Source of the DNA: Patescibacteria group bacterium | GTDB lineage: Bacteria; Patescibacteriota; Microgenomatia; UBA10105; UBA927 | Reading direction: 5' to 3' | DNA length: 64,000 bases | NCBI GenBank assembly: GCA_038063875.1 | Contig: JBBTUH010000002.1 | Coordinates: 78,451-142,450 of the forward strand | In this document: positions 1,006 through 47,689 of the stretch, in pieces | Layout of the letters: the number at the start of each line of letters is the position of its first letter | How positions within the stretch are numbered: position 1 is the stretch's first letter | Made by a program: the position numbers and the translations under genes | Notes under the pieces: model-generated | Told to the model about the DNA's origin: nothing | Seen by the model: only the letters and a program-made list of their open reading frames with translations | Databases searched by the model: none

Positions 1006-1947
1006 TTAACGACTATTCACATGTACTGTTTTATACCATTGGTACGTCAACCACAAGCCTCTATCCAAAGTGGTTCGCGGCATCCATTTCATGGACCTTC
1101 TCATTTTATCCCATGAGACGACTTGATGTAACAATTCATCTTCGCGCTCATCCTCGATTTTATCGATAAAAAGTTTCTCTGAGCCAAGTGCAATAATCTT
1201 AGTTATGAGATCACGAGCTGATATCGGTTTCCCTGCACCAACATTATATATCCTATTTTTTTCTAATTGGGTATCTGTGATTTGCCCGAGCATACTATAT
1301 GCCCGAATAGCATCGTCAACATACATGTACTGTCTTTTCGCACTGCCACCCCAGAGTGTTGGATTCTTGCCATGTACCACACTCATCATAGTCTTTGGGA
1401 TGATACGCGAAAAATTAAGATCACCAGGACCATATATATTTACAAATCGTGGTATCAATACAGGTAGATTAAAACTATCTGCATATGATTGTGCGATCAG
1501 ATCGACACACGTTTTTGACGTTTCGTACGGTCTTGACGGCTTTGCCGGCTCATCTTCTCTATAGGGTACTGGCGCTTTTCCATACACATGTGATGTAGAT
1601 GCGATTATGATACGACGGATATTGAAGCTTCTTGAGACCTCAAGCACATTTAATGCACTTGTAATATTGTTATTAAATGTTTCGTACGGCTGCCTTGATC
1701 CCGCTTCCACAAGCGATTCACTCGCCAAATGAAAACACACATCCGGTCTAAACTGTGTAAACACCGCCATGAGATCTTTTTTGGACGAAACATCAACCTT
1801 TTTTTCCACCGTAAGGTTATGAGGATGCCTTGCTAACCCAAGTACAATTGCTTTTTTCTTCTGCAAATGTGCCAGAAGATGTCGCCCTATAAACCCAGCC
1901 GATCCAGTGACAAGAACCCGACTATTTTCCCATGATTTTATTTGCAT
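1006..1947 (-). CDS. NAD(P)-dependent sugar epimerase/reductase of the extended SDR family (nucleotide-sugar 4-keto reductase or epimerase)
   Basis: It has the Rossmann motif VTGSAGFIGRHL and the YxxxK catalytic dyad in PYETSK. It lies immediately downstream of the dehydratase-like gene. Confidence 0.7.
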   Translation of the reverse strand: MQIKSWENSRVLVTGSAGFIGRHLLAHLQKKKAIVLGLARHPHNLTVEKKVDVSSKKDLMAVFTQFRPDVCFHLASESLVEAGSRQPYETFNNNITSALNVLEVSRSFNIRRIIIASTSHVYGKAPVPYREDEPAKPSRPYETSKTCVDLIAQSYADSFNLPVLIPRFVNIYGPGDLNFSRIIPKTMMSVVHGKNPTLWGGSAKRQYMYVDDAIRAYSMLGQITDTQLEKNRIYNVGAGKPISARDLITKIIALGSEKLFIDKIEDEREDELLHQVVSWDKMRRSMKWMPRTTLDRGLWLTYQWYKTVHVNSR

Positions 1948-2968
1948 ACAGAAGTATTTGGTGCCTTATTATAACCCAACTATAGATAAAAACGAATCCC
2001 ACACCCATTACAGGATGCAAAAACCATGCTCTGTCTCTAATTTTTAAAAATCCTCTACAGCTGTCAAAAAGAGGAACAACGAGCGTTACACAATAAAAAA
2101 TCGCCAGTACGAGACGCCAGATTTCTTTTTTTGTAAATATTTCGTATCGTCGAACACGTTTTCGCTCAAGTGATTTCACACCCACATGATACTGATTCAT
2201 AAACAGCATTCTTCGCTTCAAATAACTCCAAATATTTCCGTATCCTGTTAAATGTAAAATTGCATCATTCACAAACGCATAGGTATCAAACCCGTTGCGA
2301 ATAAGATCCACATTTACATCCATATCAAAATATTCACCCGGTGACGCATGTGCATACCTAAGAAGAATTTTTCGACGAACAAGAAAACCATTCGCACCAA
2401 TGGTAGGCATATTCATATCAGTAAACCGAACGATATAGTGCGGCTTTCTTTTCGCCACCTCTCCCGCCAAGTTATACTGCGAAAACATATACGAGAGCCT
2501 ATCAGCTCGTCCTAAATACCATACGAACGGATCTCCTGTGCCAAAAAGCGCAAAATATCTATCCAGAAGACTCTCTTTGGAATCGTACGCATATCGTAAT
2601 GTCTCTACACCTACAACATTGGTATCTTCCATAAACGGACGCACCATCTTTGATAACCAATGGGCATGGGGAAGTACATTATCATGATCAATCATCGCCA
2701 GAATCTCATGCGTAGCATGTTTAATACCTATACTTTTGTTATATTCTGCATTTTGCTTCGTCGGATCAATGGTATAAATACGCGCATTATATTTTTTGGC
2801 GATCGTAAGCGTAGCATCTTTAGAACCTCCGTCAACGACGATGATTTCAATATTTTTCTGGGGGTAGCGTTGTGCCCTAATGCTTTTCAAGCATCGTTCT
2901 ATGGTACGAATAGAATTATATGTTGGGGTTACGACAGATATGGTAGGAAGGTGATTATTGCGCTTCAT
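1922..2968 (-). CDS. GT2-family glycosyltransferase with a hydrophobic C-terminal region
   Basis: The N-terminal signature is ISVVTPTYNSIRTIERCL...VVDGGSKDAT and the C-terminal part is hydrophobic. The ORF track starts it at 2998. The ATG at 2968 gives a typical GT2 N-terminus (MKRNNHLPTISVVTPTYN) and a smaller overlap with the upstream gene. Confidence 0.75.
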   Translation of the reverse strand: MKRNNHLPTISVVTPTYNSIRTIERCLKSIRAQRYPQKNIEIIVVDGGSKDATLTIAKKYNARIYTIDPTKQNAEYNKSIGIKHATHEILAMIDHDNVLPHAHWLSKMVRPFMEDTNVVGVETLRYAYDSKESLLDRYFALFGTGDPFVWYLGRADRLSYMFSQYNLAGEVAKRKPHYIVRFTDMNMPTIGANGFLVRRKILLRYAHASPGEYFDMDVNVDLIRNGFDTYAFVNDAILHLTGYGNIWSYLKRRMLFMNQYHVGVKSLERKRVRRYEIFTKKEIWRLVLAIFYCVTLVVPLFDSCRGFLKIRDRAWFLHPVMGVGFVFIYSWVIIRHQILLYANKIMGK

Positions 2969-4076
2969 AAGCCTTTTGTAAAAATGCTCGACTCTCATCT
3001 ACTGCTTCATCCCATCGAAACGAATTACTCCATTCAAAAGCATTTTTTTGCATATACCTATATCGCTTTGTATCCTTATACAATCGTATGACTTCCACTG
3101 CTAAATCATGAGGATTCTCTCTTTTGGTAATGATGCCTGTTTCTCCATTCTTTACGGTATCAACAAGTCCTGAAACAGGATACACGACGGATGGTACGCG
3201 TTCTCTTGCCGCCTCGAGCACCACAAGTCCCCACCCTTCTTTGTATGACGTATGAAGCAAAATATGAGATTTGGAAAGTAGTTTTCGTTTCTCCAATTCT
3301 GAAACTTTTCCACACCAAACAATTGCATCAGATAAACCAAGCGATGTACCCAATTGTCGAAGCTTTGTTGTGTACGTTAAGTCCCCACTTCCTACAATCA
3401 ACAATTTTGCTAACGGTACACTCCTTGCCACTTCAGCAAATGAGACAATGATGTCTTCTATTCGTTTCATTCGCACAATACGACCAACAGAAATACAAGT
3501 AAATACTTTATTCTTCTTTTTTTGATAAAGCGACGTGTACTCTTGAATCGGACATGGAATAGCTATACAGTTTGAGCGAGAAATACCATAGTAGACAAGC
3601 TCATCAACAGTTGAGTTCGCATCCGTCCAAATCATGTGATTGCGATACACATATAAAAATAATCGTTCTAGTAATTTACCAATCCAGCGAACTGGTGCTC
3701 CATACATGACATCCCAAATTTTTCCTGCTATCTCATGCAAAAATAGTACGACAGGCACTTTCGCATACATAACGGCAAAAAATGGAATGCCGTGCACTTG
3801 ATCTATGATCAAATCAACTGATGAACGTTTAGATAAATAATAGAGCATTGCCCACATAAACACGGAGACAACATTCCCGCGGCGCACTATATGTACTCCT
3901 TTAACAATTTCTTCATTTTTTGCACCTGAATACATAGCTGCAAACCAAGTAACCATGTCGCCCCGCTTCACCCAGCCTTTTGCATGCTCTAACGTCACAT
4001 ATTCGGCCCCCCCTGATCGCGGATTTTTGGGATCTCTCCAACTTAATAGAAGAATATTCATTCGTGTATTATCCAA
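2955..4076 (-). CDS. GT4-family (GT-B fold) glycosyltransferase
   Basis: It carries the E-X7-E motif EGWGLVVLEAARERVPSVVYPVSGLVDTV that is typical of retaining GT4 enzymes. Confidence 0.75.
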   Translation of the reverse strand: MDNTRMNILLLSWRDPKNPRSGGAEYVTLEHAKGWVKRGDMVTWFAAMYSGAKNEEIVKGVHIVRRGNVVSVFMWAMLYYLSKRSSVDLIIDQVHGIPFFAVMYAKVPVVLFLHEIAGKIWDVMYGAPVRWIGKLLERLFLYVYRNHMIWTDANSTVDELVYYGISRSNCIAIPCPIQEYTSLYQKKKNKVFTCISVGRIVRMKRIEDIIVSFAEVARSVPLAKLLIVGSGDLTYTTKLRQLGTSLGLSDAIVWCGKVSELEKRKLLSKSHILLHTSYKEGWGLVVLEAARERVPSVVYPVSGLVDTVKNGETGIITKRENPHDLAVEVIRLYKDTKRYRYMQKNAFEWSNSFRWDEAVDESRAFLQKAYEAQ

Positions 4077-4872
4077 TATTCACTTTATAATTTAACTCTG
4101 GATCAAATATCCACTTTCTTTTATTAGCATTGTCATAGTAATGAAGTATTTTTAACCGATAATACACGGCAAATGTATCTTTCAACATTTGTAAAATAAT
4201 TCTCCAAACGGATGATGATGTAATACTAGATACACCAGAAAAATCAAGTTCGACAGGAGATTCAAAAATTCTTCTATAGCCCAAATGATGTGCCACAGCA
4301 AGTATTTCTATATCAAATGCAAATTGTTTTACAAGAAGTCGTGGCATGACATCTACCAATACTTTTCGTCGATACAGCTTCATACCGACTTGTGTATCTC
4401 GTACATTCAGCCCAAAAAGTAACCGCACGAGCATCTGATATCCCCACGATAATACTTTTCGTTGAAACGGATACTGAATTATTGACACAGGATGACGCTT
4501 GCTTCCAATAATAATATCTGCGTTATACCAATAAAAATGCTCGAGCATCATGGAGAGCCCTAATTCGCTTACATCTCCTCCGGAATCAATAAATCCTATG
4601 ATATCCCCGCGACTCTTGGCCATACCAAAGCGCACGGCATACCCTTTCCCATGATTCGTGTTATACCCAGTCACAATCAACTTACTAGAATGAACTTTTT
4701 TTGCTTCTTTTTCACTGTTGTCGACTTTCCCGTCGATGACAACTATTACCTCATAAGGAATGGATAACAAGGTGAGCTCACCTAATATAGATTGCAGTTG
4801 TTTTTGAATAGTTTTTTCCTGAGCGTACACAGGAATGATGAGTGAGAGTAACTTTGGTTTATTCTTTCCCAT
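4069..4872 (-). CDS. GT2-family glycosyltransferase, short form, resembling a polyprenyl-phosphate hexose synthase
   Basis: Motifs seen are LSLIIPVYAQEKTI, VVIDGKVDNS, IGFIDSGGD and TQVGMKLY. The start was set at the internal Met at 4872 (MGKNKPKLLSLIIPVY). Confidence 0.65.
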   Translation of the reverse strand: MGKNKPKLLSLIIPVYAQEKTIQKQLQSILGELTLLSIPYEVIVVIDGKVDNSEKEAKKVHSSKLIVTGYNTNHGKGYAVRFGMAKSRGDIIGFIDSGGDVSELGLSMMLEHFYWYNADIIIGSKRHPVSIIQYPFQRKVLSWGYQMLVRLLFGLNVRDTQVGMKLYRRKVLVDVMPRLLVKQFAFDIEILAVAHHLGYRRIFESPVELDFSGVSSITSSSVWRIILQMLKDTFAVYYRLKILHYYDNANKRKWIFDPELNYKVNIG

Positions 4873-6109
4873 AGCGGTAGTATACCAAAAGCACAATACA
4901 GGCTATAGCAGAAACTCCGATGTTTATATATATCACTTGATACAGTGATGAGTGGAAAAACCAAATCCCAACAGCTTGCACAAACGCAGCGCCCAAGGTA
5001 ATCACCCATACGCGCGTTCTGCCGATAGCAAGAAAAATAGTGGTAAGTAAATTAACCAGCGTAAAAAATGTGATAAATATACCAAATAAGCCCATAAAAG
5101 GAATAGCACCATCAAATGCGGTTCCATACATAATCCGAACGATAAAGGCTGGTGCAATAAAATATCCAAGTGTCAGTATGCTGGAGAGTGCCGCCACGGC
5201 ACCGAGAGCGCTTAGCACCATACCATGATAGGATTCTTTGCGCTCTTTTTTCTCAACTATCATCGGAAACATCACAAACCCTAATGCGGCTGACGCATAA
5301 AATATTACCTTACCAAGCACGGCAAGAGATGCGTAGATCCCTGCTTCATATGGAGAGAAAAAATGCTTCACAAGCAAAACGTCTTGACTATAGAGTGCAA
5401 TGGTGCCTAAGGTAGCCAGTAACGTCGGAACACTATAGACCGCCGCATCGGCTTTTGAGATCGACAAAGGCTTTGACTTTACTCGTATCAGACCCCAAAT
5501 CGGCACAAAATTTATGACGTATGAAATCACGTTGGATATGATATTTCCTATAAGTACTCCAATCAGTCCAAATGGCGCTCCTAAAACGCCAAATACTAAT
5601 CGCAGCAGCATTCCGATATTGGTCACTACACTCGATGCCAAAAATAGTTGAAATGATTGCATGATGCTTATGTTTATGACAGAAAAAATGAAACTCACAA
5701 ATATGAAATAGAGCCATATAAAGTAACTTGAAGATATATGCAAAAATTCACCCAATGCGTTCGCTGAAATCACGACGAACACCATTCCAATCAACACAGC
5801 AACACTGATATATCGAAACGCACCCCAAAAAAGTGTAGGAACTTCCTGCAGAAGTTTTCTCGCTCGAAGCTGTGAAAAAAATTTCGCAAGGATCGTTTGG
5901 ACGACGCCCGATCCTATGTTGATTATATAAAATAACGACAAGAGTGCAGAAAATTCTCCATATATCACTGGGCCTAATAATCGTCCTACGAGCACGTGAT
6001 ATGCATATGCACCGACGTTAGCCAGCATTGATCCCACCAAAATAATGAGACTTCCTTTCGCCAGAGGGTGCATCAGCGCATCTTTGATTTTTTGCAAAAA
6101 TCTGTTCAT
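4859..6109 (-). CDS. Wzx-like polysaccharide or oligosaccharide flippase of the MOP superfamily
   Basis: It is a polytopic membrane protein of about 415 aa and hydrophobic throughout. The start at 6109 (MNRFLQKIKDALMHPLAKGS) makes a 4-bp ATGA overlap with the upstream GT2 gene. Confidence 0.65.
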   Translation of the reverse strand: MNRFLQKIKDALMHPLAKGSLIILVGSMLANVGAYAYHVLVGRLLGPVIYGEFSALLSLFYIINIGSGVVQTILAKFFSQLRARKLLQEVPTLFWGAFRYISVAVLIGMVFVVISANALGEFLHISSSYFIWLYFIFVSFIFSVINISIMQSFQLFLASSVVTNIGMLLRLVFGVLGAPFGLIGVLIGNIISNVISYVINFVPIWGLIRVKSKPLSISKADAAVYSVPTLLATLGTIALYSQDVLLVKHFFSPYEAGIYASLAVLGKVIFYASAALGFVMFPMIVEKKERKESYHGMVLSALGAVAALSSILTLGYFIAPAFIVRIMYGTAFDGAIPFMGLFGIFITFFTLVNLLTTIFLAIGRTRVWVITLGAAFVQAVGIWFFHSSLYQVIYINIGVSAIACIVLLVYYRYGKE

Positions 6110-6807
6110 GATGTGCTCACAGAATTCCAAAATCGATACCGTAAAAGCGTAAATACGGCAGCTACTCCATCTTTCCATGTCAACTTCTTGCCTTCGGAAA
6201 ATTTACGACCAAAATACGAAATAGGCACTTCGTATATCTGATAGCCACTTCGCAATACCTTCGCCGTAATTTCTGGTTCAAAATCAAATCGCTTGGCATC
6301 AATGTGTAGCCCTTTGAGAACTGATGCATCAAATACCTTATACCCTGTTTCCATGTCAGTAATATTTGTGTTGTAAAGAATATTGGTGATAAGTGTCACG
6401 AATTTATTACCCATCGCGTATACGAACATAGTAGATAAATGACCGCCCAAAAATCTAGAACCATATACCACATGAACGCGATCATTCTTAAGCGGTGCAA
6501 GAAGTATAGGATAATCAGCTGGGCTATACTCCAAGTCAGCATCTTGTATGAGAATGACATTCCCCGTGGCGTTTGAAATGCCCATAGTCACGGCAGACCC
6601 TTTTCCTTCATTTTTTTCTTTCAGAATGACTTTCACTCGTTTTGTCCATTTTTTAAGCACATTTCGTGTGCCATCTGTAGACCCATCATCGATGACAATA
6701 ATTTCCTTCTCCCATCCTGAAACCACAGCATGAACCACTCGATCAATAAGCTCATCAATAGTCGACACTTCGTTATATACCGGAATGATAATGGAAAGTT
6801 TTTTCAT
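6106..6807 (-). CDS. GT2-family glycosyltransferase, DPM1/GtrB-like putative polyprenyl-phosphate sugar synthase
   Basis: Motifs seen are LSIIIPVYNEVSTI, IDDGSTDGT, IQDADLEYSP and GSRF. These are characteristic of the dolichyl-P-mannose/glucose synthase clade. The protein is 233 aa with no obvious transmembrane segment. Confidence 0.7.
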   Translation of the reverse strand: MKKLSIIIPVYNEVSTIDELIDRVVHAVVSGWEKEIIVIDDGSTDGTRNVLKKWTKRVKVILKEKNEGKGSAVTMGISNATGNVILIQDADLEYSPADYPILLAPLKNDRVHVVYGSRFLGGHLSTMFVYAMGNKFVTLITNILYNTNITDMETGYKVFDASVLKGLHIDAKRFDFEPEITAKVLRSGYQIYEVPISYFGRKFSEGKKLTWKDGVAAVFTLLRYRFWNSVSTS

Positions 6808-8165
6808 GCGTTGAAAAAGGCCTTACCGTGGAGGATTAACCATGCCCAGAGCGGAATAAATTCCAAAGTTTTTCCATCTATCTTTTGTATAGCCGAATAA
6901 TTTTTCGTTAACACATGTCCTTTTTCCTTATTAAACTCCTGCAATCCTTCTACCATGCCCTGTGTTTCTCTCTCATGCGGCTGATCAGTGTATGAAACAT
7001 TATAAAAAGCCAACGCAGGATCCATAGTCACAAAATCTATCTCTTTCTTACCTTTCCAATAGTAAATCGCCTGCGATTGTTTTTTTAGCTCCATGTATAC
7101 TATATTTTCCGCACATTGCCCGATATCAGGTCGTAAAAGCGGCACGTTAAAATTTCGCAGTCCATTATCGACTACATACATCTTCCGAGCCCTTTGCACA
7201 TCCTGCGTCTCCTTCGTTTTATACGAATAATGCTTACTCTCAAAGAGTAAATATGCCCGCTGAAAATACTCGATGTAGGATTTGGTAGTCTCTAAAGAGA
7301 GTTTCTGCGGTCGAGATAAACTACTGTATGTATGCGTTTTCGTAAAATCAGACATAATCTGAAGTCCTAATACTTCTACTTCCTGCTGATTTCGAACACC
7401 ATTGGGCACCACAACGTCTCTGGAAACCGTATCTCTAAAATAATTTGATGCCAATGTCCGTTTGACATCTTCATCTTCGGTAAGCACTATTTCAGGATAC
7501 CCGCCTTCTTTCATATAATTCCCCAAGTGATGTAAAATTTTCGTTTGTTGGGAGAAATTAGCCTTGAGAATCGATGATATATTCGCTTGCCCTTCTATGG
7601 TAATTCCTTTTATGCGCAAATATTCATAAAAGTTAAAGGGGTAGACGTCTACTTGAACGTTTCTGCCGGTCAAAACTGTCGCCGACTCTGACTCAACCAA
7701 CGATCGACGTGATCCAGAAAGTATAAACTTAACAGGATCTTTCCGCTCATACTTACTGCTTATCCAACGATTGAAGTCTTTAATTCCCTGAATTTCATCC
7801 AAAAATATATAAACTTTCCCTTGCGGATTGTAAGTCTCCATATAATAGATAAAAATATCTTCCAAGAGTTTCCAGCCTTGTGTCAAATACTGCTGCACCA
7901 ATATATCCTCCAAAAACAAATACAAAACGTTTTTGGCAGGTATACCTTTCTTAACGATAAGATGCTCCATGAGTTGATGCATCAGCGTCGATTTCCCTGC
8001 ACGACGAACACCAGCAAGGATTAACACATGACGAATATCCAGAAGTTTTTTGAAGCGCTCAAGATACTTCTCTCGAGGCACGGTATGTATCCATTTACCT
8101 TTCAAGGGATCAGTAAAGTGAGGGTTCCATGTCGAAATTAACGTTTGGCACACTTCTCTATCCAT
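6804..8165 (-). CDS. AAA-type ATPase, DUF4143/COG1373-like
   Basis: It has a Walker A motif in LILAGVRRAGKST and a Walker B-like IFLDEIQ. The long C-terminal domain is typical of the archaeal/bacterial ATPase-plus-DUF4143 family. Confidence 0.6.
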   Translation of the reverse strand: MDREVCQTLISTWNPHFTDPLKGKWIHTVPREKYLERFKKLLDIRHVLILAGVRRAGKSTLMHQLMEHLIVKKGIPAKNVLYLFLEDILVQQYLTQGWKLLEDIFIYYMETYNPQGKVYIFLDEIQGIKDFNRWISSKYERKDPVKFILSGSRRSLVESESATVLTGRNVQVDVYPFNFYEYLRIKGITIEGQANISSILKANFSQQTKILHHLGNYMKEGGYPEIVLTEDEDVKRTLASNYFRDTVSRDVVVPNGVRNQQEVEVLGLQIMSDFTKTHTYSSLSRPQKLSLETTKSYIEYFQRAYLLFESKHYSYKTKETQDVQRARKMYVVDNGLRNFNVPLLRPDIGQCAENIVYMELKKQSQAIYYWKGKKEIDFVTMDPALAFYNVSYTDQPHERETQGMVEGLQEFNKEKGHVLTKNYSAIQKIDGKTLEFIPLWAWLILHGKAFFNA

Positions 8166-8233: not shown

Positions 8234-9292
8234 TTATATCGAAGGGTTTATTACGGTATTATACACGGCTATTGTCTCGTGAGCTACACGATCCCAGCTA
8301 AACTTGTTCGCCCACGCATGACCCTCAAGGATCAATTCCTCTCGTTTGTTAGATGATAAAGAAAACGCTTCAAGCATTTTTCGTGCAATACTTTCTGTAT
8401 CATTTGGATCACAAATAAGTGATGGCCCTGCAATTTCTTTCAAACTCCCACCATGCGTCGCAATCACCACCGTACCTGCAGACATCGCCTCAAGAACCGG
8501 CAATCCAAACCCCTCATAAAAGGAAGCAAGTACACACGTGCTTGAAAGTGAAAGAAGTGCTGGTAAATCATCATCCGATACTCGACCTACTCTCTCCACA
8601 GTTGACTCAAGCTGAAGCTCTTTTATTACACCATCTATGCGTTGTGCTTCTTGGGATTCATTCAAAAACGCATCTCCCACAAGAAACAACTTTTCGCCTG
8701 TCTTCAACATATCTTTATTCTTTAATAATTTCCAAGCGTTGAGAAGACCGAGAATGTTTTTATTCCAATTGATATCTCCTACATACACTATAAAACGTTT
8801 CGGGAGTGCATACTTTTTTATCACACGCTTTGTTGCTTCATTAGTAATTGATTGAGAAAACGTGAGTGGAGGTGCTAATGGAACCACATCAACGGTATCC
8901 TTTCTTCGTAATATTTTTATAATGTCGTTTTTGGAACTGACACTATCGGTGATAATCCTTGTGGCTCGTGATATATTCCACTTTTGTATTTGCCATTTGA
9001 CTTCACCCCGCACGCCTGCAGGAAAATGCTCGGGAAAGACAATCGGAATGAGATCGTGTACTGTCACTACAAACGGTTTGTGGAGAAAGAATGGAAGCGT
9101 TATGAAAAATGGATCAAAACTTGTAAAATGAACTAGGTCTACTTCTTGTGGAATATCACCAATTGAAACAAACTCACAGATGGAAACACTATTATTTCTT
9201 TTCAGAGCCGCGATCAACTCTCTTGTGTAGACGCCCACTCCCCGTGTTTTGTGACCGCTTGAGAGTGGCTGTGTGCTTATTGCGATTCTCAT
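8234..9292 (-). CDS. GT4-family glycosyltransferase
   Basis: The C-terminal motif is FYEGFGLPVLEAMSAGTVVIATHGGSLKEIAG (E-X7-E). Confidence 0.75.
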   Translation of the reverse strand: MRIAISTQPLSSGHKTRGVGVYTRELIAALKRNNSVSICEFVSIGDIPQEVDLVHFTSFDPFFITLPFFLHKPFVVTVHDLIPIVFPEHFPAGVRGEVKWQIQKWNISRATRIITDSVSSKNDIIKILRRKDTVDVVPLAPPLTFSQSITNEATKRVIKKYALPKRFIVYVGDINWNKNILGLLNAWKLLKNKDMLKTGEKLFLVGDAFLNESQEAQRIDGVIKELQLESTVERVGRVSDDDLPALLSLSSTCVLASFYEGFGLPVLEAMSAGTVVIATHGGSLKEIAGPSLICDPNDTESIARKMLEAFSLSSNKREELILEGHAWANKFSWDRVAHETIAVYNTVINPSI

Positions 9293-10489: not shown

Positions 10490-12082
10490 CTATGTACGTT
10501 TAAAAGTAGATTTATGCGCACTTCGATTATCATAAAGTGCTTTGCATATACCGAAAGCTAACAAAGAGAACAAACTGAGCAACGATATGCTATCTGCTAA
10601 AAGTCTAAGTGGAGTCTCTTCAAATCTCACGCGCAACGTATGCTCGCCGCTTGGCATATTCACATGGATAATACCGTTAGGTTGATAAGAAATAGGAGTT
10701 TCTTTCCCATCAACGTACGCTTTCCACCCTGCAAAATAAAGAATTTGTGCAGCTATAGTGCTCTCTTTTTTCGCTTGTACGTTCAAGGTATACGAGAGTG
10801 GCGCTTCTTTCTCTACCTGTATAGTCATATCTTCAGCGTTTGCTTGAAAACGTTTAGTAAATCGATCTTTTTTCCATCCGGTATAGATTGTCGTGAAAGA
10901 GTTCCCCAGTGAAGACGTACCGTCTGTAAATTCTCGCCGAGAAAGATAATGCGCGTCATCCCTTTTTTCATACGTCACCGGCTTCATATAGGAAAAACTT
11001 ACGGTAAACGCCAATAAAGAAAGCCCCACCATAATCCAACGCGACAGCACAGTGGTCAAAAGTGCTGAAAGATATCCCACAGCAATCATAGGAACCATCA
11101 ATAATCTCCATGGATATTGAATATTAGCCATTAAGGGAACGTATCGCCATAGTTGCAACGAGTACTCTGTCATACCAAATATAGCTATCACAACGACACA
11201 AAACACAGGTAAAATATTTTTCCGCAATTCTCTTTTTCGTACTGCGATAAAAAAACTGATACATACGATAAGAAGTGGCACGATGCCGATTTGATAGGAC
11301 ATCTCATCAGCGCTTATTCCTACGCCAGAGAATCCCGTTCCCCATGACGGCAATAGGAGTTGAAAAAGATCTGGAAAATGATCCATATATGAAACGCTAT
11401 TTAACCCCACCATAAAACGACTCTCAACGAGTGCTGGCAGCCAAAAATACGTTGCTAACCCAATTCCTGTAGCGATTGAGAAGATGTTGCCTCGTTTGCG
11501 ATACCACGTATACAAAAAAATAATTGGAATAAATATGAACGCTGTAATATTGTGACTTACTATAATACCGGCTATCCCTATTGCTACACCAAAGGAAATA
11601 CCGTATTCTAACGCTGCAAACGTTAACAATACAAAAGAAAGCGCCCACACCTCGCCTACTGACCCACGCACGTATATATCGACAAACCAATACGGCACGA
11701 GAGAACAAACAATTGTCCCGATCATAGCTGCTCTGTCACCAAATACTCTCTTGAGCCACAAAAAACACCAGAATACCGCAGTCAAGTATCCTGCGGCGAG
11801 GGTGAGTTTCACACTGTCCACAAAGCTCACACCAAAAACATGAAAAAAACTCCCTATATAATTAGGAAACGGATAATGAAAAAGAAAAAGAGGCAATCCA
11901 TATCCGCTATTTAAATCAGGAGCCCACCGTGGAAAAAGATACCCGTATGAGAGCATGGTATAAAACTGCCAGAAACGAATAATGTGATACTCACCATCGT
12001 GCGTTGGTATAAATCGTGCACCAAATAATGGAAGACTTGAGATTATTGCTATCGATAACGCAAATAAAAAATATTTTTTCAT
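10490..12082 (-). CDS. Large polytopic membrane protein, putative GT-C glycosyltransferase, resembling the PF10131 'PTPS-related' family
   Basis: The N-terminal motif is IPTHDGEYHIIRFWQFYTMLSYGYLFPRWAPDLNSGYGLPLFLFHYP, followed by many transmembrane segments and a C-terminal soluble domain. The start was set at the ATG at 12082 (MKKYFLF), which gives an ATGA overlap with the upstream gene. There are four paralogs in this window. Confidence 0.6.
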   Translation of the reverse strand: MKKYFLFALSIAIISSLPLFGARFIPTHDGEYHIIRFWQFYTMLSYGYLFPRWAPDLNSGYGLPLFLFHYPFPNYIGSFFHVFGVSFVDSVKLTLAAGYLTAVFWCFLWLKRVFGDRAAMIGTIVCSLVPYWFVDIYVRGSVGEVWALSFVLLTFAALEYGISFGVAIGIAGIIVSHNITAFIFIPIIFLYTWYRKRGNIFSIATGIGLATYFWLPALVESRFMVGLNSVSYMDHFPDLFQLLLPSWGTGFSGVGISADEMSYQIGIVPLLIVCISFFIAVRKRELRKNILPVFCVVVIAIFGMTEYSLQLWRYVPLMANIQYPWRLLMVPMIAVGYLSALLTTVLSRWIMVGLSLLAFTVSFSYMKPVTYEKRDDAHYLSRREFTDGTSSLGNSFTTIYTGWKKDRFTKRFQANAEDMTIQVEKEAPLSYTLNVQAKKESTIAAQILYFAGWKAYVDGKETPISYQPNGIIHVNMPSGEHTLRVRFEETPLRLLADSISLLSLFSLLAFGICKALYDNRSAHKSTFKRT

Positions 12083-13179
12083 CTTTTCAGGCTGAATGTA
12101 TACCACACCGTATACATCATGGGAGGAATCCATGTCACCAAAGTTCGTATCAGAGGACCTGTGCCTCCATATTCACGCGTGGCTATCCATGGCACGTATC
12201 GGAGCATCAGTCCAAAACTCAACATATACGCGGCTCCCTGAAGAAATGATCGTTTCCCCATTGGTAATAGTGATACAAACACGAGAAACCATATCGCATA
12301 CCATGGATACATTTCTTCTCGAAGCGGTGTGAGCAAAAAGACGCCAAACATACACATTCCTGCCAATAAAGCACGCTTTTCGTCTGATAAGTGACGGAAA
12401 AATACAAAAAGGGGCAATACAACGATAGTTGCACCCTTTACTAATACTGATGCAATCATAAAACCCCATCCCATAATCCTTACTGCTAACTGCGAATTAC
12501 GCCAAAGATATATTCCATAGAGAACAAGCGCCATCATAAACGTATCATTGTGCCCTGATACAAATGTCTCGATAATCACAAGTGGATTAAGAACGAAAAA
12601 CAAGACGTTTCTCACATTCTTTGTCATCCTATATATAAGAATTCCTACCATGACGTATGCGCTTATGACAAAAAGTTTGAATGTATATATTGAAACCAAA
12701 ACATTTCCAAACGAAAGCACATGAGGGATCCACGTCCCCAATATCCAAATCGGTCCATACAGCGCGAGCTTATTGGCAGCCCTTGTAAACTGCAGCATCG
12801 GTTCAAAAAGAAGCTCAGTAGGCATCACCACGTAGGGATTTTCTCGATAAAAATATGCGACTTTTGCGGTAAGGATATAGTTGAATATGTCATGAGACAA
12901 TGCAGGGTATGACAAGAAAAATATTAAACCGATGCAGAATAAAAACAATGCGTATTTTCTAAATGAGAATGCCGTTTTCTCAAACAATATTCGAGCGTAT
13001 AGAAAAAATAATAGAAAAATAAGGAATGTATATACCAACGCTGCTATATACAATTTTTGATAGACAATATGAGTAAGCCATGTGTTTTGCAGTATAGGAA
13101 AATTTGGGTCAACAAACCCAAATGAAAAAATTGAAAAAAGAATTCCCACTATACCATACCAAATAAGCAAAGCAATCAT
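12079..13179 (-). CDS. Polytopic membrane protein of about 366 aa, putative membrane glycosyltransferase (DUF2029/GT87-like?)
   Basis: It is hydrophobic throughout. The motif NPLVIIETFVSGHNDTFMMALVLYG is shared with paralogs at 47690..48772 and, more loosely, 20931..22220. Confidence 0.45.
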   Translation of the reverse strand: MIALLIWYGIVGILFSIFSFGFVDPNFPILQNTWLTHIVYQKLYIAALVYTFLIFLLFFLYARILFEKTAFSFRKYALFLFCIGLIFFLSYPALSHDIFNYILTAKVAYFYRENPYVVMPTELLFEPMLQFTRAANKLALYGPIWILGTWIPHVLSFGNVLVSIYTFKLFVISAYVMVGILIYRMTKNVRNVLFFVLNPLVIIETFVSGHNDTFMMALVLYGIYLWRNSQLAVRIMGWGFMIASVLVKGATIVVLPLFVFFRHLSDEKRALLAGMCMFGVFLLTPLREEMYPWYAIWFLVFVSLLPMGKRSFLQGAAYMLSFGLMLRYVPWIATREYGGTGPLIRTLVTWIPPMMYTVWYTFSLKR

Positions 13180-13688: not shown

Positions 13689-14461
13689 GTCAGGTTGCCA
13701 AATATAAACTTTTTGTATGCCATAGGAAAATGGAGGCTTGAGAATAGTGCAAACTGCAATCCTTGCCATCCATCGACGAACCCCTTGTGCCTTACATAAA
13801 TCATGAAAAAAGTAACAATCGGCTTTATAAAACAATATGCAAAAAGCAATGACATGGTCGATCTTTTGTATTTCTTTCGCAATTCTATAGCAGTAAGATT
13901 CGTATACGTATCCGCTTTTGCCCAATATTCTTCGAGGGTGTTGTTGGTGTAATGAAGCAAAGGTTCCTTCAGCGTCCCAATTTCTCCATCAATCTTGATC
14001 TGTTCATGAACATATTTACATGGCAACCTTCCCTTTCCGTTTTGAAACAAACGCACGAGATAATCAGGATATTGCCCACCTTTGGATAACCATCGACCAA
14101 CGAAAAAATTTTTACGTGGCATTTGATACCCAGCATTTGTGTTCTTTTTCTTTATTACTGATCGGATTTCTTCCGAAAGATCATTACCCACCACTTCATC
14201 AGCATCCAACTGCAAAATCCAATCACTCTTACACATCGCAATAGCTCTGTTTTTATTAATATGAAACATCACTGGATTATCTCGTTTCGAAATGACTGCA
14301 CCAAACTTTTTTGCAATCTCGAGAGTTCCGTCAGAAGACCCACCATCTACAAGCACTATCTCATCCACCCATGACCCGATAGATGCTAAACATGCGCCAA
14401 GTTTTATAGCCTCATTATATGTCGCAATAGCGACGGATATAGTTATTTTCTTTTTTGCCAT
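13685..14461 (-). CDS. GT2-family glycosyltransferase
   Basis: Motifs seen are ISVAIATYNEAIKLGACL and VLVDGGSSDGT. Confidence 0.75.
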   Translation of the reverse strand: MAKKKITISVAIATYNEAIKLGACLASIGSWVDEIVLVDGGSSDGTLEIAKKFGAVISKRDNPVMFHINKNRAIAMCKSDWILQLDADEVVGNDLSEEIRSVIKKKNTNAGYQMPRKNFFVGRWLSKGGQYPDYLVRLFQNGKGRLPCKYVHEQIKIDGEIGTLKEPLLHYTNNTLEEYWAKADTYTNLTAIELRKKYKRSTMSLLFAYCFIKPIVTFFMIYVRHKGFVDGWQGLQFALFSSLHFPMAYKKFIFGNLT

Positions 14462-17702: not shown

Positions 17703-17707
17703 ACTTG

Positions 17708-29303: not shown

Positions 29304-29306
29304 TAT

Positions 29307-34861: not shown

Positions 34862-34866
34862 GATTA

Positions 34867-47681: not shown

Positions 47682-47689
47682 AGGGAATA

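What the first reader, a model, noticed from the sequence alone, without database searches (positions are those of the whole stretch)
4069..6807. Two modules of a DPM1-like GT2 synthase next to a Wzx-like flippase, consistent with lipid-linked monosaccharide donor supply
At 6106..6807, 4859..6109 and 4069..4872 the order is a DPM1/GtrB-like GT2, then a MOP-type flippase, then a second GT2, all with ATGA overlaps. At 42217..42972 and 40778..42220 there is a second pair of a DPM1-like GT2 followed by a flippase, placed directly downstream of a block of GT-C genes. In three-component glycosylation systems (GtrA/B/C, CsbB/GtcA/YfhO, ArnC/ArnEF/ArnT), a GT2 makes polyprenyl-P-sugar, a flippase moves it across the membrane, and a GT-C enzyme transfers it. 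The gene order here fits several such modules sharing one pool of GT-C transferases. It is unusual that the flippases are Wzx/MOP-type proteins of 415-480 aa rather than small GtrA or ArnE proteins.
Basis: partly seen in the sequence, partly recalled or inferred. Interest (0 to 1): 0.6.

Follow-up and report, generated by a model that had tools for sequence, protein, structure and literature searches.

The report
Lipid-sugar synthases coupled to MOP flippases
In this uncultured Patescibacteria genome, enzymes that load a sugar onto a membrane lipid carrier are encoded overlapping with MOP-type membrane transporters. In other bacteria the same two proteins are fused into one chain, which makes the pair a testable candidate for the machine that makes such lipid-sugars and moves them across the membrane.

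Summary
On the minus strand, 6106-6807, 4859-6109 and 4069-4872 encode a DPM1-like GT2, a 12-helix MOP-fold protein and a second DPM1-like GT2. 42217-42972 and 40778-42220 encode a second GT2/MOP pair downstream of GT-C genes.

Corrections:
- One of the three junctions is a 14-nt overlap, not ATGA.
- 4859-6109 matches no Pfam, NCBIfam or PDB sequence directly. Its MOP identity rests on homologues and a confident model.

By profile coverage, a small tree and the Dol-P phosphate-site residues, the short GT2s group with PfDPMS, ArnC and GtrB, not with oligosaccharide-building GT2s.

The MOP-to-GT2b adjacency is overlapping in 75 of 78 Microgenomates genomes. Of the 150 best GT2b-family representatives, 44 are single MOP-GT2b polypeptides, some continuing into a GT4.

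No priming phosphoglycosyltransferase, Wzy or ABC exporter is visible in the window.

Most likely these are coupled polyprenyl-phosphate-sugar synthase/flippase modules feeding 19 GT-C paralogues. It is unresolved whether the cargo carries one sugar or a short chain.

MOP-type flippases in three-component systems already have proposed precedents (GacK, AglR, a Citrobacter MATE protein). I therefore call this a new variant of a known kind.

The parts
8234..9292 (-). GT4 glycosyltransferase, the first gene of the conserved core operon
   Evidence: Pfam Glycos_transf_1 at 5e-28. It holds the same position in nearly all related loci.
6804..8165 (-). AAA_14/DUF4143 ATPase. It is an insertion in the operon and probably not part of the pathway.
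   Evidence: Pfam. Among related loci it is found at this position only in the closest relatives L007, L008 and L040.
6106..6807 (-). GT2a: a soluble DPM1/AglJ-like candidate polyprenyl-phosphate glycosyltransferase (233 aa, DAD motif, A-loop R201/K207)
   Evidence: PDB 5mlz DPMS at 1.2e-20 over residues 3-210. NCBIfam AglJ at 2e-34 over residues 4-224. Supported by the profile comparison and the tree. No TM segment.
4859..6109 (-). MOP1: a divergent 12-helix MOP-superfamily (PST/Wzx-like) membrane protein and candidate lipid-linked-sugar flippase
   Evidence: No direct HMM hit. 32 of 38 homologues hit PF01943. AF2 pLDDT 88.9 and a Foldseek full-length match to MATE, MurJ and WzxE. Fused to GT2b in 44 of 150 family representatives.
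4069..4872 (-). GT2b: a soluble DPM1-like GT2 (267 aa), 70-85% identical across Microgenomates, with DSGGD in place of DXD and a conserved phosphate site K125/R138/S142
   Evidence: Top PDB hits for the family profile are DPMS 4e-13, ArnC 8e-10 and GtrB 3.5e-9. Supported. Overlaps MOP1 by 14 nt.
2955..4076 (-). GT4 glycosyltransferase, a constant downstream partner of GT2b that is fused to MOP-GT2b in some bacteria
   Evidence: Pfam. Directly downstream of GT2b in 43 of 78 loci. MOP-GT2b-GT4 triple fusions exist.
1922..2998 (-). GT2c: a non-DPM1-type GT2 with two C-terminal hydrophobic segments
   Evidence: Pfam. Aligns with the DPM1-like group only over the N-terminal ~100 positions. Conserved position in related loci.
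1006..1947 (-). NDP-sugar epimerase/dehydratase (SDR), the last gene of the core operon
   Evidence: Pfam Epimerase at 1e-52. Conserved position in related loci.
10490..13179 (-). Two GT-C candidates upstream of the core operon: a YfhO/PTPS-related type (10490-12133) and a GT87/MptA_B-like type (12079-13179)
   Evidence: Pfam YfhO at 6e-8. Orthologues of 12079-13179 hit PF26314 MptA_B_family. Paralogue groups are given.
14443..23700 (-). Six tandem GT-C paralogues (PTPS_related and PMT_2 types)
   Evidence: Pfam. Paralogue groups and 8-12 TM-like segments each.
23699..30959 (+). Four GT-C paralogues on the opposite strand (PTPS_related, YfhO, PMT_2 and a PMT_2 paralogue)
   Evidence: Pfam. Paralogue groups.
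32756..38209 (-). Two long YfhO-type GT-C genes flanking a GT4 (34867-35907)
   Evidence: Pfam. Conserved in relatives.
40778..42220 (-). MOP2: a canonical PST/Wzx-family flippase (480 aa)
   Evidence: Pfam Polysacc_synt_3 at 4.5e-50. NCBIfam Oglyco_Wzx at 4e-27 and WzxC-type at 1.5e-26, both below the curated cut-offs. E. coli WzxC by phmmer at 4e-9.
42217..42972 (-). GT2d: a soluble DPM1-like GT2 with an ATGA overlap onto MOP2
   Evidence: NCBIfam PgfS, ArnC and AglJ with long coverage. Supported. Overlap shown. The pair is conserved in 3 of 3 relatives.
42929..48772 (-). Four GT-C candidates directly upstream of GT2d (PTPS_related, its paralogue, PMT_2 and a GT87-like type)
   Evidence: Pfam. 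Paralogue groups.
48822..49574 (-). GT2e: the fifth DPM1-like GT2 (250 aa)
   Evidence: NCBIfam PgfS at 3.6e-21 and ArnC at 8e-20. Clusters with GT2b and GT2d.
49567..51126 (-). PMT_2-type GT-C between the GT2-GtrA fusion and GT2e
   Evidence: Pfam PMT_2 at 3.5e-9.
51134..52246 (-). GT2 fused to a GtrA_DPMS_TM domain (type-III DPMS-like synthase with a GtrA-like membrane domain)
   Evidence: Pfam Glycos_transf_2 at 4e-25 plus GtrA_DPMS_TM at 1.4e-19. Sister to PfDPMS in the tree with 93% support.

Best explanation
The window belongs to a Microgenomates (Gottesmanbacteria-like) Patescibacterium. It carries two conserved cell-surface glycan clusters.

In each cluster, a soluble DPM1/GtrB/ArnC-type GT2 transfers a sugar from a nucleotide sugar to polyprenyl monophosphate on the cytoplasmic face. 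These enzymes are GT2a and GT2b around MOP1, and GT2d before MOP2. The translationally coupled MOP-family protein both anchors the synthase at the membrane and translocates its lipid-linked product to the outer face. There the product serves as donor for the 19 GT-C paralogues encoded alongside.

A third, self-contained module uses a GT2-GtrA fusion at 51134-52246.

What is shown:
- The gene anatomy and the family and fold assignments.
- Conservation of the Dol-P phosphate-binding residues.
- Near-universal overlap of MOP1 and GT2b.
- Recurrent MOP-GT2b(-GT4) fusion proteins in other phyla.

What is inferred:
- The enzymatic activity, the sugar identity, transport by MOP1 and MOP2, and the acceptor.

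What is open:
- Whether the flipped lipid carries one sugar (a classical three-component donor), or a di- or trisaccharide built on the polyprenyl-P-sugar by the co-operonic GT4 and GT2c. The second option would be an AglJ-like priming route that needs no phosphoglycosyltransferase. I rate the two about equally likely.
For: Family assignment of the short GT2s:
- GT2a matches PfDPMS at 1.2e-20 over residues 3-210 and AglJ at 2e-34.
- The three top PDB hits for the GT2b family profile are DPMS, ArnC and GtrB.
- Long alignments occur only with polyprenyl-P synthases.
- The DPM1-like versus other bipartition has 98% bootstrap support.
- PfDPMS R117/R131/S135 correspond to GT2b K125/R138/S142. These positions are held in 148-149 (K125, R138) and 145 (S142) of 150 family representatives (PMC5526996).

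MOP1 is a MOP-fold protein:
- Shown by homologues and by the structural model.

Coupling of MOP1 and GT2b:
- MOP1 and GT2b overlap in 75 of 78 genomes.
- 44 of the 150 best GT2b-family representatives are MOP-GT2b single chains. Pfam confirms this, and one cluster was seen in 13 independent assemblies.
- 25 fused loci were found among 51 judged metagenome loci.
- The fusion order equals the gene order in the window.

Context:
- GT-C genes lie inside or beside the operon.
- One fusion sits beside a Wzm/Wzt ABC exporter, where a repeat-unit Wzx would be redundant.
- One fusion stands without any other glycosyltransferase within 9 kb.

Absences:
- No WecA- or WcaJ-type priming enzyme, no Wzy and no small GtrA/ArnE gene is visible in the window.

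Precedents:
- A parallel GT2-GtrA fusion occurs in the same window. There is published evidence that the GtrA-like domain of PfDPMS may flip its product.
- Wzx- or MATE-type flippases have been proposed for three-component systems.
Against: - No biochemical evidence exists for any step.
- MOP/PST proteins that have been characterised mostly flip polyprenyl-PP-oligosaccharides, and sources name the homologues 'oligosaccharide flippase'.
- The clusters also encode three GT4 and six non-DPM1 GT2 enzymes. Their products need an export route, and the MOPs are the only transporters visible.
- GT2b lacks the second Asp of the DXD motif.
- GT2a lacks two of the three phosphate-site residues.
- The GT2b structural model was too poor (pLDDT 61) to check the interface helices.
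- The reference set for the classification was small (6 outside sequences).
- Priming enzymes were looked for only by Pfam in the window and by single-sequence phmmer in the related loci, and they could be encoded elsewhere in the genome.
- Three metagenome loci do contain a WcaJ-like gene.
Confidence: 0.55

Rival explanations
1. Conventional Wzx pathway. MOP1 and MOP2 flip polyprenyl-PYROphosphate-linked oligosaccharides. These are primed by a phosphoglycosyltransferase encoded elsewhere and built by the GT4 and GT2c-type enzymes. The DPM1-like GT2s only happen to be co-operonic donor suppliers, and their products cross the membrane by another route, as in the eukaryotic ER.
For: - Homologues carry Polysacc_synt domains and are named oligosaccharide flippases.
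- MOP2 resembles WzxC and O-glycosylation Wzx proteins.
- GT4 and other GT2 genes lie in the same operons.
- A WcaJ-like gene is present in 3 of the related metagenome loci.
Against: - There is no priming enzyme, Wzy or ligase in the 64-kb window or in 89 related loci.
- It does not explain why the flippase is covalently fused specifically to the DPM1-like GT2 in 44 representative clusters.
- It does not explain fusions beside a Wzm/Wzt exporter or standing without other glycosyltransferases.
Confidence: 0.22
2. Anchor only. MOP1 has lost or never had transport activity. It serves as the membrane anchor or activator of the soluble GT2b and GT2a, in the way DPM3 serves DPM1 or GacJ serves GacI. 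Translocation would be done by something else.
For: - The short GT2s have no TM segments.
- MOP1 is too divergent to hit any MOP HMM directly.
- Soluble DPM1-type enzymes are known to need membrane partners.
Against: - The complete 12-helix MOP fold is retained with high model confidence.
- Several polar residues are invariant across the family (R43, D243, H249, Q378, H386).
- A 12-TM anchor is uneconomical compared with the small membrane partner GacJ (three transmembrane helices).
Confidence: 0.08
3. The short GT2s are ordinary oligosaccharide-building or protein-modifying GT2s. The resemblance to DPM1 would then be only the shared GT-A fold.
For: - Single-sequence hits of GT2b to PDB and NCBIfam are weak and mixed: GalT1, PgaC and GpgS rank near ArnC.
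- The DXD motif of GT2b is non-canonical.
Against: - Those other hits cover only the nucleotide-binding half of the domain.
- Profile searches rank DPMS, ArnC and GtrB first, with coverage past the DXD motif.
- The phosphate-site residues are conserved.
- The tree bipartition has 98% support.
Confidence: 0.07

Closest known systems
Streptococcus pyogenes GacI/GacJ/GacK/GacL (GlcNAc side chain of the group A carbohydrate)
   Same: A cytoplasmic GT-A (GT2) enzyme without its own membrane anchor makes C55-P-sugar. A Wzx-type flippase (GacK) is proposed to move it, and a GT-C (GacL) transfers it outside the membrane (PMC8035078).
   Different: - Here there is no GacJ-like small membrane partner. 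The flippase gene itself overlaps the synthase, and elsewhere the two are fused.
- Two synthases flank one flippase.
- There are 19 GT-C genes rather than one.
- The organism is a Patescibacterium.
- GacK function is itself only proposed.
Haloferax volcanii AglD/AglR/AglS, and AglJ-primed assembly of the N-glycan on dolichol monophosphate
   Same: A DPM1-like GT2 charges Dol-P, a Wzx-like protein (AglR) is implicated in translocating Dol-P-mannose, and a Dol-P-Man-dependent transferase finishes the reaction outside (PMC3871713). AglJ is the best NCBIfam match of GT2a. AglJ also shows that a DPM1-like enzyme can prime an oligosaccharide on a monophosphate carrier, which matches the oligosaccharide variant of my model.
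   Different: - The known system is archaeal.
- Its genes are not overlapping or fused.
- The GT2a score against AglJ (119 bits) is far below the curated cut-off (325 bits).
- No AglB/STT3-type oligosaccharyltransferase was seen among the GT-C genes here.
Citrobacter youngae O1/O2 pentofuranose three-component system (polyprenyl-phosphoribose synthase, MATE-family flippase ORF14, GT136 GT-C)
   Same: A MOP-superfamily (MATE) protein is the proposed flippase of a polyprenyl-monophosphate sugar donor for a GT-C. The system is described as widespread (PMC11127046).
   Different: The synthase there is a PRPP-dependent phosphoribosyltransferase, not a GT2. The flippase is MATE-like rather than PST-like. 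No fusion was reported. It decorates an ABC-transporter-exported O antigen.
GtrA/GtrB/GtrC, ArnC/ArnE-F/ArnT and CsbB/GtcA/YfhO three-component systems
   Same: The logic is the same, and so are the synthase clade and the GT-C families (YfhO and PMT_2/ArnT-like).
   Different: - The flippase is a 12-TM MOP protein, not a 4-TM GtrA or SMR-type protein. E. coli GtrA, ArnE and ArnF find nothing in the window.
- The synthases lack the C-terminal TM helices of GtrB and ArnC.
Type-III dolichyl-phosphate mannose synthase (Pyrococcus furiosus DPMS, GT2 fused to a GtrA-like TM domain)
   Same: It is a covalent fusion of a DPM1-like catalytic domain with a candidate flippase domain. Recent structures suggest that this domain may flip the product (PMC12992685). 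The window has one such gene (51134-52246).
   Different: In the MOP-GT2b fusions the transporter is N-terminal, has 12 TM helices and belongs to an unrelated fold.
Eukaryotic ER lipid-linked-oligosaccharide pathway (DPM1, ALG5, RFT1, lumenal ALG GT-Cs) and mycobacterial Ppm1/MptA/MptB lipomannan assembly (compared from my own knowledge, not tested here)
   Same: DPM1/ALG5-like donor synthases, GT4-type cytoplasmic enzymes, a MOP-superfamily protein and many GT-C enzymes acting outside are combined. Orthologues of 12079-13179 hit the MptA_B_family Pfam model.
   Different: No homology-level test against RFT1, ALG5 or Ppm1 was possible here. The Dol-P-Man and Dol-P-Glc flippases of those systems are unidentified.

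Membership tests
DPM1/GtrB/ArnC-type polyprenyl-phosphate GT2 (tested on GT2a 6106-6807) | GT-A GT2 domain that aligns with solved polyprenyl-P synthases through the acceptor half, not only the nucleotide-binding half | tested here: met
   5mlz at 1.2e-20 over residues 3-210. AglJ covers 4-224, PpgS 6-221 and the DolP-hexose transferase 10-202. The family HMM aligns with DPMS over positions 4-203 of 229 and with ArnC over 3-209.
DPM1/GtrB/ArnC-type polyprenyl-phosphate GT2 (tested on GT2a) | DAD(LQ) metal and diphosphate motif, and A-loop Arg/Lys | tested here: met
   D89-A-D91-L-E93, plus R201/K207 aligned to PfDPMS R202/K208 (PMC5526996).
DPM1/GtrB/ArnC-type polyprenyl-phosphate GT2 (tested on GT2a) | Dol-P phosphate-binding triad R117/R131/S135 of PfDPMS | tested here: inconclusive
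   Only R118 is kept. The other two positions are Y130 and N134, and the same holds in the RgtE-like phage homologue.
DPM1/GtrB/ArnC-type polyprenyl-phosphate GT2 (tested on GT2b 4069-4872) | Alignment with solved polyprenyl-P synthases beyond the DXD motif, and best-hit ranking | tested here: met
   Family profile against PDB: DPMS 4e-13 (positions 9-176), ArnC 8e-10 (6-176) and GtrB 3.5e-9. The NJ bipartition has 98% support. WcaA and WcaE align only over ~110 positions.
DPM1/GtrB/ArnC-type polyprenyl-phosphate GT2 (tested on GT2b) | Canonical DXD motif | tested here: not met
   The motif is D96-S-G98-G99-D100. The wider family, including all 44 MOP fusions, has D-x-D-G-D. The Microgenomates branch has Gly at position 98.
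DPM1/GtrB/ArnC-type polyprenyl-phosphate GT2 (tested on GT2b) | Dol-P phosphate-binding triad | tested here: met
   K125/R138/S142 are invariant in A3. K125 and R138 are held in 148-149 and S142 in 145 of 150 representatives.
DPM1/GtrB/ArnC-type polyprenyl-phosphate GT2 (GT2a and GT2b) | Amphipathic interface helices or a membrane anchor, and formation of polyprenyl-P-sugar | not testable with these tools
   There are no TM segments. The GT2b model has pLDDT below 50 over its C-terminal half.
MOP superfamily, PST/Wzx-type flippase (tested on MOP1 4859-6109) | Direct match to Polysacc_synt, Polysacc_synt_3, MurJ or MatE models | tested here: not met
   There are no Pfam or NCBIfam hits at E up to 0.01-1. 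There are no PDB sequence hits even with the family profile.
MOP superfamily, PST/Wzx-type flippase (tested on MOP1) | Homology by transitivity, and the 12-TM MOP fold | tested here: met
   32 of 38 homologues hit PF01943 and 22 of 38 hit PF13440. The AF2 model has pLDDT 88.9. Foldseek matches VcmN, MurJ and WzxE with probability 1.00 and TM-score 0.73-0.81 over ~420-440 columns.
MOP superfamily, PST/Wzx-type flippase (MOP1 and MOP2) | Translocation of a lipid-linked glycan, and the identity of the cargo | not testable with these tools
   Only context bears on this: the fusions and overlaps.
Three-component extracytoplasmic glycosylation system | A polyprenyl-P-sugar synthase, a flippase and a GT-C encoded together | tested here: met
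   The window has 5 DPM1-like GT2s, 2 MOP proteins plus 1 GtrA domain, and 19 GT-C candidates. GT-C genes lie within 10 kb in 65 of 78 related loci, and GT-C genes sit inside the operon in relatives.
Three-component extracytoplasmic glycosylation system | A small GtrA- or SMR-type flippase | tested here: not met
   There is no free-standing small membrane ORF in the clusters. E. coli GtrA, ArnE and ArnF find nothing. Only the fused GtrA_DPMS_TM domain at 51134-52246 is present.
Wzx/Wzy-dependent repeat-unit pathway | An initiating phosphoglycosyltransferase (WecA/MraY-type or WbaP/PglC-type) in the locus | tested here: not met
   Pfam gave none among the 52 ORFs of at least 150 aa that were scanned; the five not scanned (454-969, 27731-28198, 53291-53977, 59246-59731 and 62880-63602) lie outside the glycan clusters or overlap called genes on the opposite strand. 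phmmer with E. coli WecA and WcaJ gave no hit in the window plus 89 loci, though 3 of 51 metagenome loci have a WcaJ-like ORF. The rest of the genome was not seen.
Wzx/Wzy-dependent repeat-unit pathway | A Wzy polymerase or O-antigen-ligase-type protein | tested here: inconclusive
   There is no Wzy_C Pfam hit and no hit with three E. coli polymerases. Wzy proteins are too divergent for this to be decisive.

The most novel reading that the evidence does not exclude
MOP1-GT2b, and the actinobacterial single-chain MOP-GT2b(-GT4) proteins, may be self-contained machines that synthesise a polyprenyl-monophosphate-linked hexose (or a short glycan primed on it) and flip it. If so, PST-type MOP proteins would be a general class of the long-sought polyprenyl-P-hexose flippases.

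It would also imply that Microgenomates build their main surface glycan without any phosphoglycosyltransferase. They would prime on the monophosphate carrier, as Haloferax does, and elongate outside the membrane with about 19 GT-C enzymes, as in mycobacterial lipomannan or the ER lumen.
Probability: 0.3. Interest if true: 0.8.

Novelty: new variant of a known kind. Interest (0 to 1): 0.6.

Why it matters
No flippase for a polyprenyl-phosphate monosaccharide was directly demonstrated in the systems read here. GtrA, GacK, AglR and the Citrobacter MATE protein are assigned mostly from gene context. From my own knowledge, the flippases for Dol-P-Man and Dol-P-Glc in eukaryotes and for polyprenyl-P-mannose in mycobacteria are also unidentified.

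A synthase and a MOP transporter that overlap in about 96% of Microgenomates genomes, and that are one polypeptide in many Actinomycetota, form a Rosetta-stone pair. This nominates a concrete protein that can be expressed for direct synthesis-plus-translocation assays.

The finding also outlines how an uncultured, reduced-genome lineage invests heavily in extracytoplasmic glycan assembly: 19 GT-C genes in 64 kb.

If the cargo proves to be an oligosaccharide on a monophosphate carrier, that would be an archaeal-style pathway in bacteria.

Tried and rejected
- **Direct HMM and PDB sequence searches with MOP1.** These found nothing. I had to go through homologues and a structural model.
- **MOP1 compared with MOP2.** BLASTP and hhalign showed no detectable similarity. 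The two are not recent paralogues.
- **AlphaFold2 model of GT2b.** Built from 64 homologues of at least 70% identity, it had pLDDT 61, with the C-terminal half below 50. I therefore ran no fold search on it and could not inspect the interface helices.
- **Single-sequence PDB and NCBIfam searches of GT2b.** The results were ambiguous. They became clear only with family profiles.
- **First tree attempts.** One timed out and one gave undefined Kimura distances because the sequences are too divergent. I replaced them with BLOSUM-score distances. This is a crude NJ tree with few references.
- **Literature searches.** I found no description of MOP-GT2 fusions or of glycan loci in Gottesmanbacteria or the CPR.
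- **The 'rgtE' label.** It sits on a phage homologue of GT2a and is an automatic annotation. I treated it only as a lead to a uronic-acid donor.
- **A mobile or defence-island explanation for the focal genes.** I considered and rejected it. Composition is uniform, and synteny is conserved across families of Microgenomates.

Full report
**Anatomy**

All genes of the finding lie on the minus strand of a window with even composition (about 40% GC). Three ORFs sit at 6106-6807 (233 aa, here GT2a), 4859-6109 (416 aa, MOP1) and 4069-4872 (267 aa, GT2b). The GT2a/MOP1 junction is a true ATGA overlap. The MOP1/GT2b junction is a 14-nt overlap. The second pair, 42217-42972 (GT2d) and 40778-42220 (MOP2), has an ATGA overlap.

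Pfam confirms GT2 domains in GT2a, GT2b and GT2d, and a strong Polysacc_synt_3 match in MOP2.

MOP1 matches nothing directly in Pfam, NCBIfam or PDB sequences. Three results still identify it as a MOP protein:
- Its homologues, 30-95% identical, come from Patescibacteria, Gottesmanbacteria and Microgenomates. Where a source names them, they are called oligosaccharide flippases or export proteins.
- 32 of 38 aligned homologues hit PF01943.
- A confident AlphaFold2 model (pLDDT 88.9, 12 long helices) superposes over its whole length on MATE transporters, MurJ and WzxE, with TM-score 0.73-0.81.

**The rest of the window**

Pfam and NCBIfam scans of 52 of the 57 ORFs of at least 150 aa show one very large glycan region from about 1 kb to 57 kb. 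The five unscanned ORFs lie outside the glycan clusters or overlap called genes on the opposite strand. The region contains:
- 19 GT-C candidates in six paralogue groups: PMT_2, PTPS_related/YfhO-C, long YfhO, GT87/MptA_B-like and others.
- Three GT4 genes.
- Six GT2 genes of other types.
- RmlA/B/D-like enzymes, a UDP-glucose dehydrogenase and SDR enzymes.
These are 48822-49574 (GT2e) and 51134-52246, the latter a GT2 fused to a GtrA_DPMS_TM domain.

No phosphoglycosyltransferase, Wzy-type polymerase, ABC exporter or free-standing small GtrA/ArnE-like gene was found.

A GT2b protein 100% identical to the window's copy is recorded as 'MAG: glycosyltransferase [Patescibacteria group bacterium]'.

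**Are the short GT2s polyprenyl-phosphate sugar synthases?**

Five lines of evidence bear on it.

1. GT2a aligns with the Pyrococcus DPMS structure over residues 3-210 (E 1.2e-20). It aligns over its full length with AglJ, PpgS and haloarchaeal Dol-P-hexose transferase models. Oligosaccharide-building GT2 models cover only its first ~95-115 residues.
2. GT2b is ambiguous as a single sequence. A profile of 25 orthologues ranks DPMS (4e-13), ArnC (8e-10) and GtrB (3.5e-9) first, with alignments running to position 176.
3. I built family HMMs from the orthologues in 80 related loci. I scored them against all eleven GT2s of the window plus E. coli ArnC, GtrB, WcaA and WcaE, the PfDPMS catalytic domain and a phage RgtE-like protein. 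The GT2a and GT2b profiles align over about 165-225 positions with DPMS, ArnC, GtrB (GT2b profile only; the GT2a profile reaches just 114 positions), GT2d, GT2e and the GT2-GtrA fusion. They align over only ~100 N-terminal positions with WcaA, WcaE and the six other GT2s. The reverse comparison shows the same split.
4. A BLOSUM-distance NJ tree splits the nine DPM1-like sequences from the eight others with 98% bootstrap support. The tree is crude and the reference set small.
5. The PfDPMS residues that hold the Dol-P phosphate are R117, R131 and S135 (PMC5526996). They correspond to K125, R138 and S142 in GT2b. K125 and R138 are kept in 148-149, and S142 in 145, of 150 family representatives. 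GT2d and the GtrA fusion keep R/R/S. GT2a keeps only the first, but it has the DAD motif and the A-loop Arg/Lys.

One feature fails for GT2b. Its DXD is D-S-G-G-D, whereas the wider family has D-x-D-G-D. None of the four short enzymes has a TM segment.

I conclude that they belong to the polyprenyl-phosphate synthase clade. GT2b is an atypical member at the metal site.

**Conservation of the arrangement**

A scan of one genome per GTDB species found 555 genomes encoding a GT2b relative. The best 80 loci are all Microgenomates: Gottesman-, Woese-, Levy-, Davies-, Roizman- and Woykebacteria.

After ORF calling and assignment against the window's proteins:
- MOP1 lies directly upstream of GT2b on the same strand in 75 of 78 loci. 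Every one of the commonest stop/start distances is an overlap of 4 to 56 nt (or longer).
- GT2a is directly upstream of MOP1 in 43 loci.
- The gene after GT2b is a GT4 in 43 loci and an RmlB-like gene in 15.
- GT-C genes lie within 10 kb in 65 loci.

Unassigned genes inside the operon in relatives are themselves GT-C (PIG-V/PMT_2-like at ~385 aa; PMT_2 at ~440 and ~680 aa).

The consensus order is GT-C block, GT2 (13685-type), DUF5667, MptA_B-like, GT-C, GT4, [GT-C], [GT2a], MOP1, GT2b, [RmlB], GT4, [GT-C], GT2c, epimerase. In the window an AAA_14/DUF4143 ATPase (6804-8165) interrupts this order. The same is true in its three closest relatives only.

GT2b is 70-85% identical where MOP1 is about 45% identical.

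The second cluster is collinear in all three relatives inspected. Its order is GT2-GtrA, PMT_2, GT2e, MptA_B-like, three GT-C genes, GT2d, MOP2, three GT2 genes, YfhO, GT4, YfhO, GT2.

**Fusion proteins**

I searched the GT2b profile against 1.84 billion 50%-identity representatives. This returned 940 proteins at E up to 1e-30.

Domain architecture of the best 150:

| Architecture | Count |
|---|---|
| MOP1-family domain (about 12 TM-like segments), ~30-residue linker, then GT2b | 44 |
| of which continuing into a GT4 | 4 |
| GT2b-GT4 | 3 |
| GT2b-GT2c-like | 9 |

The MOP-GT2b-GT4 order is exactly the gene order 4859-6109 / 4069-4872 / 2955-4076 of the window.

Pfam confirms Polysacc_synt(_3) plus Glycos_transf_2 (plus Glycos_transf_1) in these proteins. 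The sources assign them to Acidimicrobiales and Actinomycetota. One cluster has 13 members from independent assemblies, so the fusion is not an assembly artefact. They hit the window's MOP1 (1e-21) and GT2b (5e-60) directly.

A metagenome scan with the fusion alignment found 25 fused loci (15 of them with the GT4 also fused) and 6 unfused adjacent pairs among 51 loci that could be judged. This set is biased towards fusions by the query.

The contexts are informative:
- One fusion lies beside a Wzm/Wzt ABC exporter, where a repeat-unit Wzx would be superfluous.
- One stands with no other glycosyltransferase within 9 kb, next to a class A PBP.
- Most are flanked by large polytopic proteins of 700-1200 aa with 9-14 TM-like segments. 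These have a GT-C-like architecture, but their fold was not verified.
- One is near a PMT_2 GT-C and GT4 genes.

**Mechanism**

The best-supported reading has three steps.
1. GT2b, and likewise GT2a and GT2d, charge polyprenyl monophosphate with a sugar at the cytoplasmic face.
2. The MOP partner, being co-translated or fused, tethers the soluble synthase and translocates the lipid-linked product.
3. The product is used outside by the GT-C paralogues.

Each of the five synthases has a candidate flippase next to it. GT2a and GT2b have MOP1, GT2d has MOP2, the GT2-GtrA fusion carries its own domain, and GT2e lies one gene away from that fusion.

What cannot be decided is the size of the cargo. 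A GT4 and a GT2c-type enzyme are constant partners and are sometimes fused. No priming phosphoglycosyltransferase is present, and no other exporter is visible for the products of these cytoplasmic enzymes. Together these fit a model in which GT2b primes a short glycan on the monophosphate carrier before flipping, as AglJ does in Haloferax.

The Wzm/Wzt-adjacent and stand-alone fusions, and the fact that PMT_2, YfhO, MptA/B and PIG-V-type GT-Cs use monosaccharide donors (established knowledge), fit the classical monosaccharide-donor model. I rate the two versions as roughly equal.

I give the common core 0.55: a DPM1-like synthase whose lipid-linked product is the MOP cargo. A conventional Und-PP-oligosaccharide Wzx role, with the synthases as mere neighbours, gets about 0.2.

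**Comparison with known systems, and novelty**

Three-component systems are classical (GtrABC, ArnC/EF/T, CsbB/GtcA/YfhO). Wzx- or MATE-type flippases have in fact been proposed for three systems:
- S. pyogenes GacI/J/K/L (PMC8035078).
- Haloferax AglD/R/S (PMC3871713).
- A widespread pentofuranose system in Citrobacter (PMC11127046).

None of these has direct transport evidence.

A synthase-flippase fusion of another kind is also known. Type-III DPMS is a GT2-GtrA fusion, and recent structural data suggest that it flips its product (PMC12992685).

As far as my text searches reach, three things appear to be undescribed:
- The systematic translational coupling of a PST-type MOP protein with a DPM1-like GT2.
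- The frequent covalent fusion of the two.
- The scale of the GT-C expansion around them in Microgenomates.

I therefore class this as a new variant of a known kind, of moderate to good interest. The reason is that it offers a defined protein for testing how polyprenyl-P-sugars cross membranes.

**Limits**

- Everything functional is inferred from sequence, one predicted fold and gene context.
- The reference set for the GT2 classification was small.
- The GT2b model failed.
- The search for priming enzymes covered only the window and neighbouring loci, and used single-sequence queries outside the window.
- ORF calling in the high-GC metagenome loci was crude.
- The rest of the genome was not seen.

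Noticed in passing
window 51134-52246 (-), with 52262-53218 and 53230-54543 upstream: A GT2 fused to a GtrA_DPMS_TM domain (type-III DPMS-like) sits directly downstream of a UDP-glucose 6-dehydrogenase and an SDR. This hints at a uronic-acid- or pentose-derived lipid-linked donor. It is followed by a PMT_2 GT-C and by GT2e.
   Followed up: partly
window 10490-51126: There are nineteen GT-C candidates in 64 kb, in six paralogue groups. They include six tandem copies on the minus strand (14443-23700) and four on the plus strand (23699-30959). This is an unusually dense GT-C expansion for a small-genome lineage.
   Followed up: partly
window 6804-8165 (-) and 9434-10255 (-): An AAA_14/DUF4143 ATPase is inserted between the conserved GT4 and GT2a genes. 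Among related loci it sits at this position only in the three closest relatives (L007, L008, L040); L058 carries a shorter AAA_14-like gene after GT2b. A PaaX-like regulator is likewise absent from the consensus order in more distant relatives.
   Followed up: partly
window 4069-4872, residues 96-100: GT2b of the Microgenomates branch has D-x-G-G-D where the rest of the family, including all MOP fusions, has D-x-D-G-D. D100 aligns with the metal ligand Gln93 of PfDPMS and may compensate.
   Followed up: partly
L088 (Microcystis phage MaAM05) 3986-6430: A phage gene 51% identical to GT2a is auto-annotated as 'rgtE, dodecaprenyl-phosphate galacturonate synthase'. It is followed by a 568-aa hypothetical protein, which could be a GT-C. 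That would make a phage-borne two-gene glycan-modification module.
   Followed up: no
L059, L073, L075, L077, L081, L082, L083 (Daviesbacteria-type loci): In these loci GT2a is not next to MOP1. It lies a few genes downstream on the opposite strand, divergently paired with UDP-glucose dehydrogenase and an SDR in L059, L073, L077 and L083 (one ORF intervenes in L081; L075 and L082 show no dehydrogenase). A PIG-V/PMT_2-like GT-C of ~387 aa takes its place before MOP1.
   Followed up: partly
P0389, P0393, P0375, P0362 and others: GT2b also occurs fused C-terminally to a GT4 or to a GT2c-like domain without the MOP part. This argues that these three cytoplasmic enzymes act in one assembly line.
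   Followed up: partly
L095 6726-8945 and L096 2153-4462: Actinobacterial MOP-GT2b fusions lie near a class A penicillin-binding protein (Transgly plus Transpeptidase) in two unrelated contigs. This may link the product to the cell wall.
   Followed up: no
L091 3161-3490 (-): A SemiSWEET-like gene (MtN3_slv, 109 aa) sits among the GT-C genes of the second cluster in one relative. It is absent from the window.
   Followed up: no
record titles of L007, L008, L011, L013 and many others: Many MAG records titled 'uncultured Gammaproteobacteria bacterium' carry this Microgenomates-specific locus at 60-84% identity. They are evidently mislabelled.
   Followed up: no
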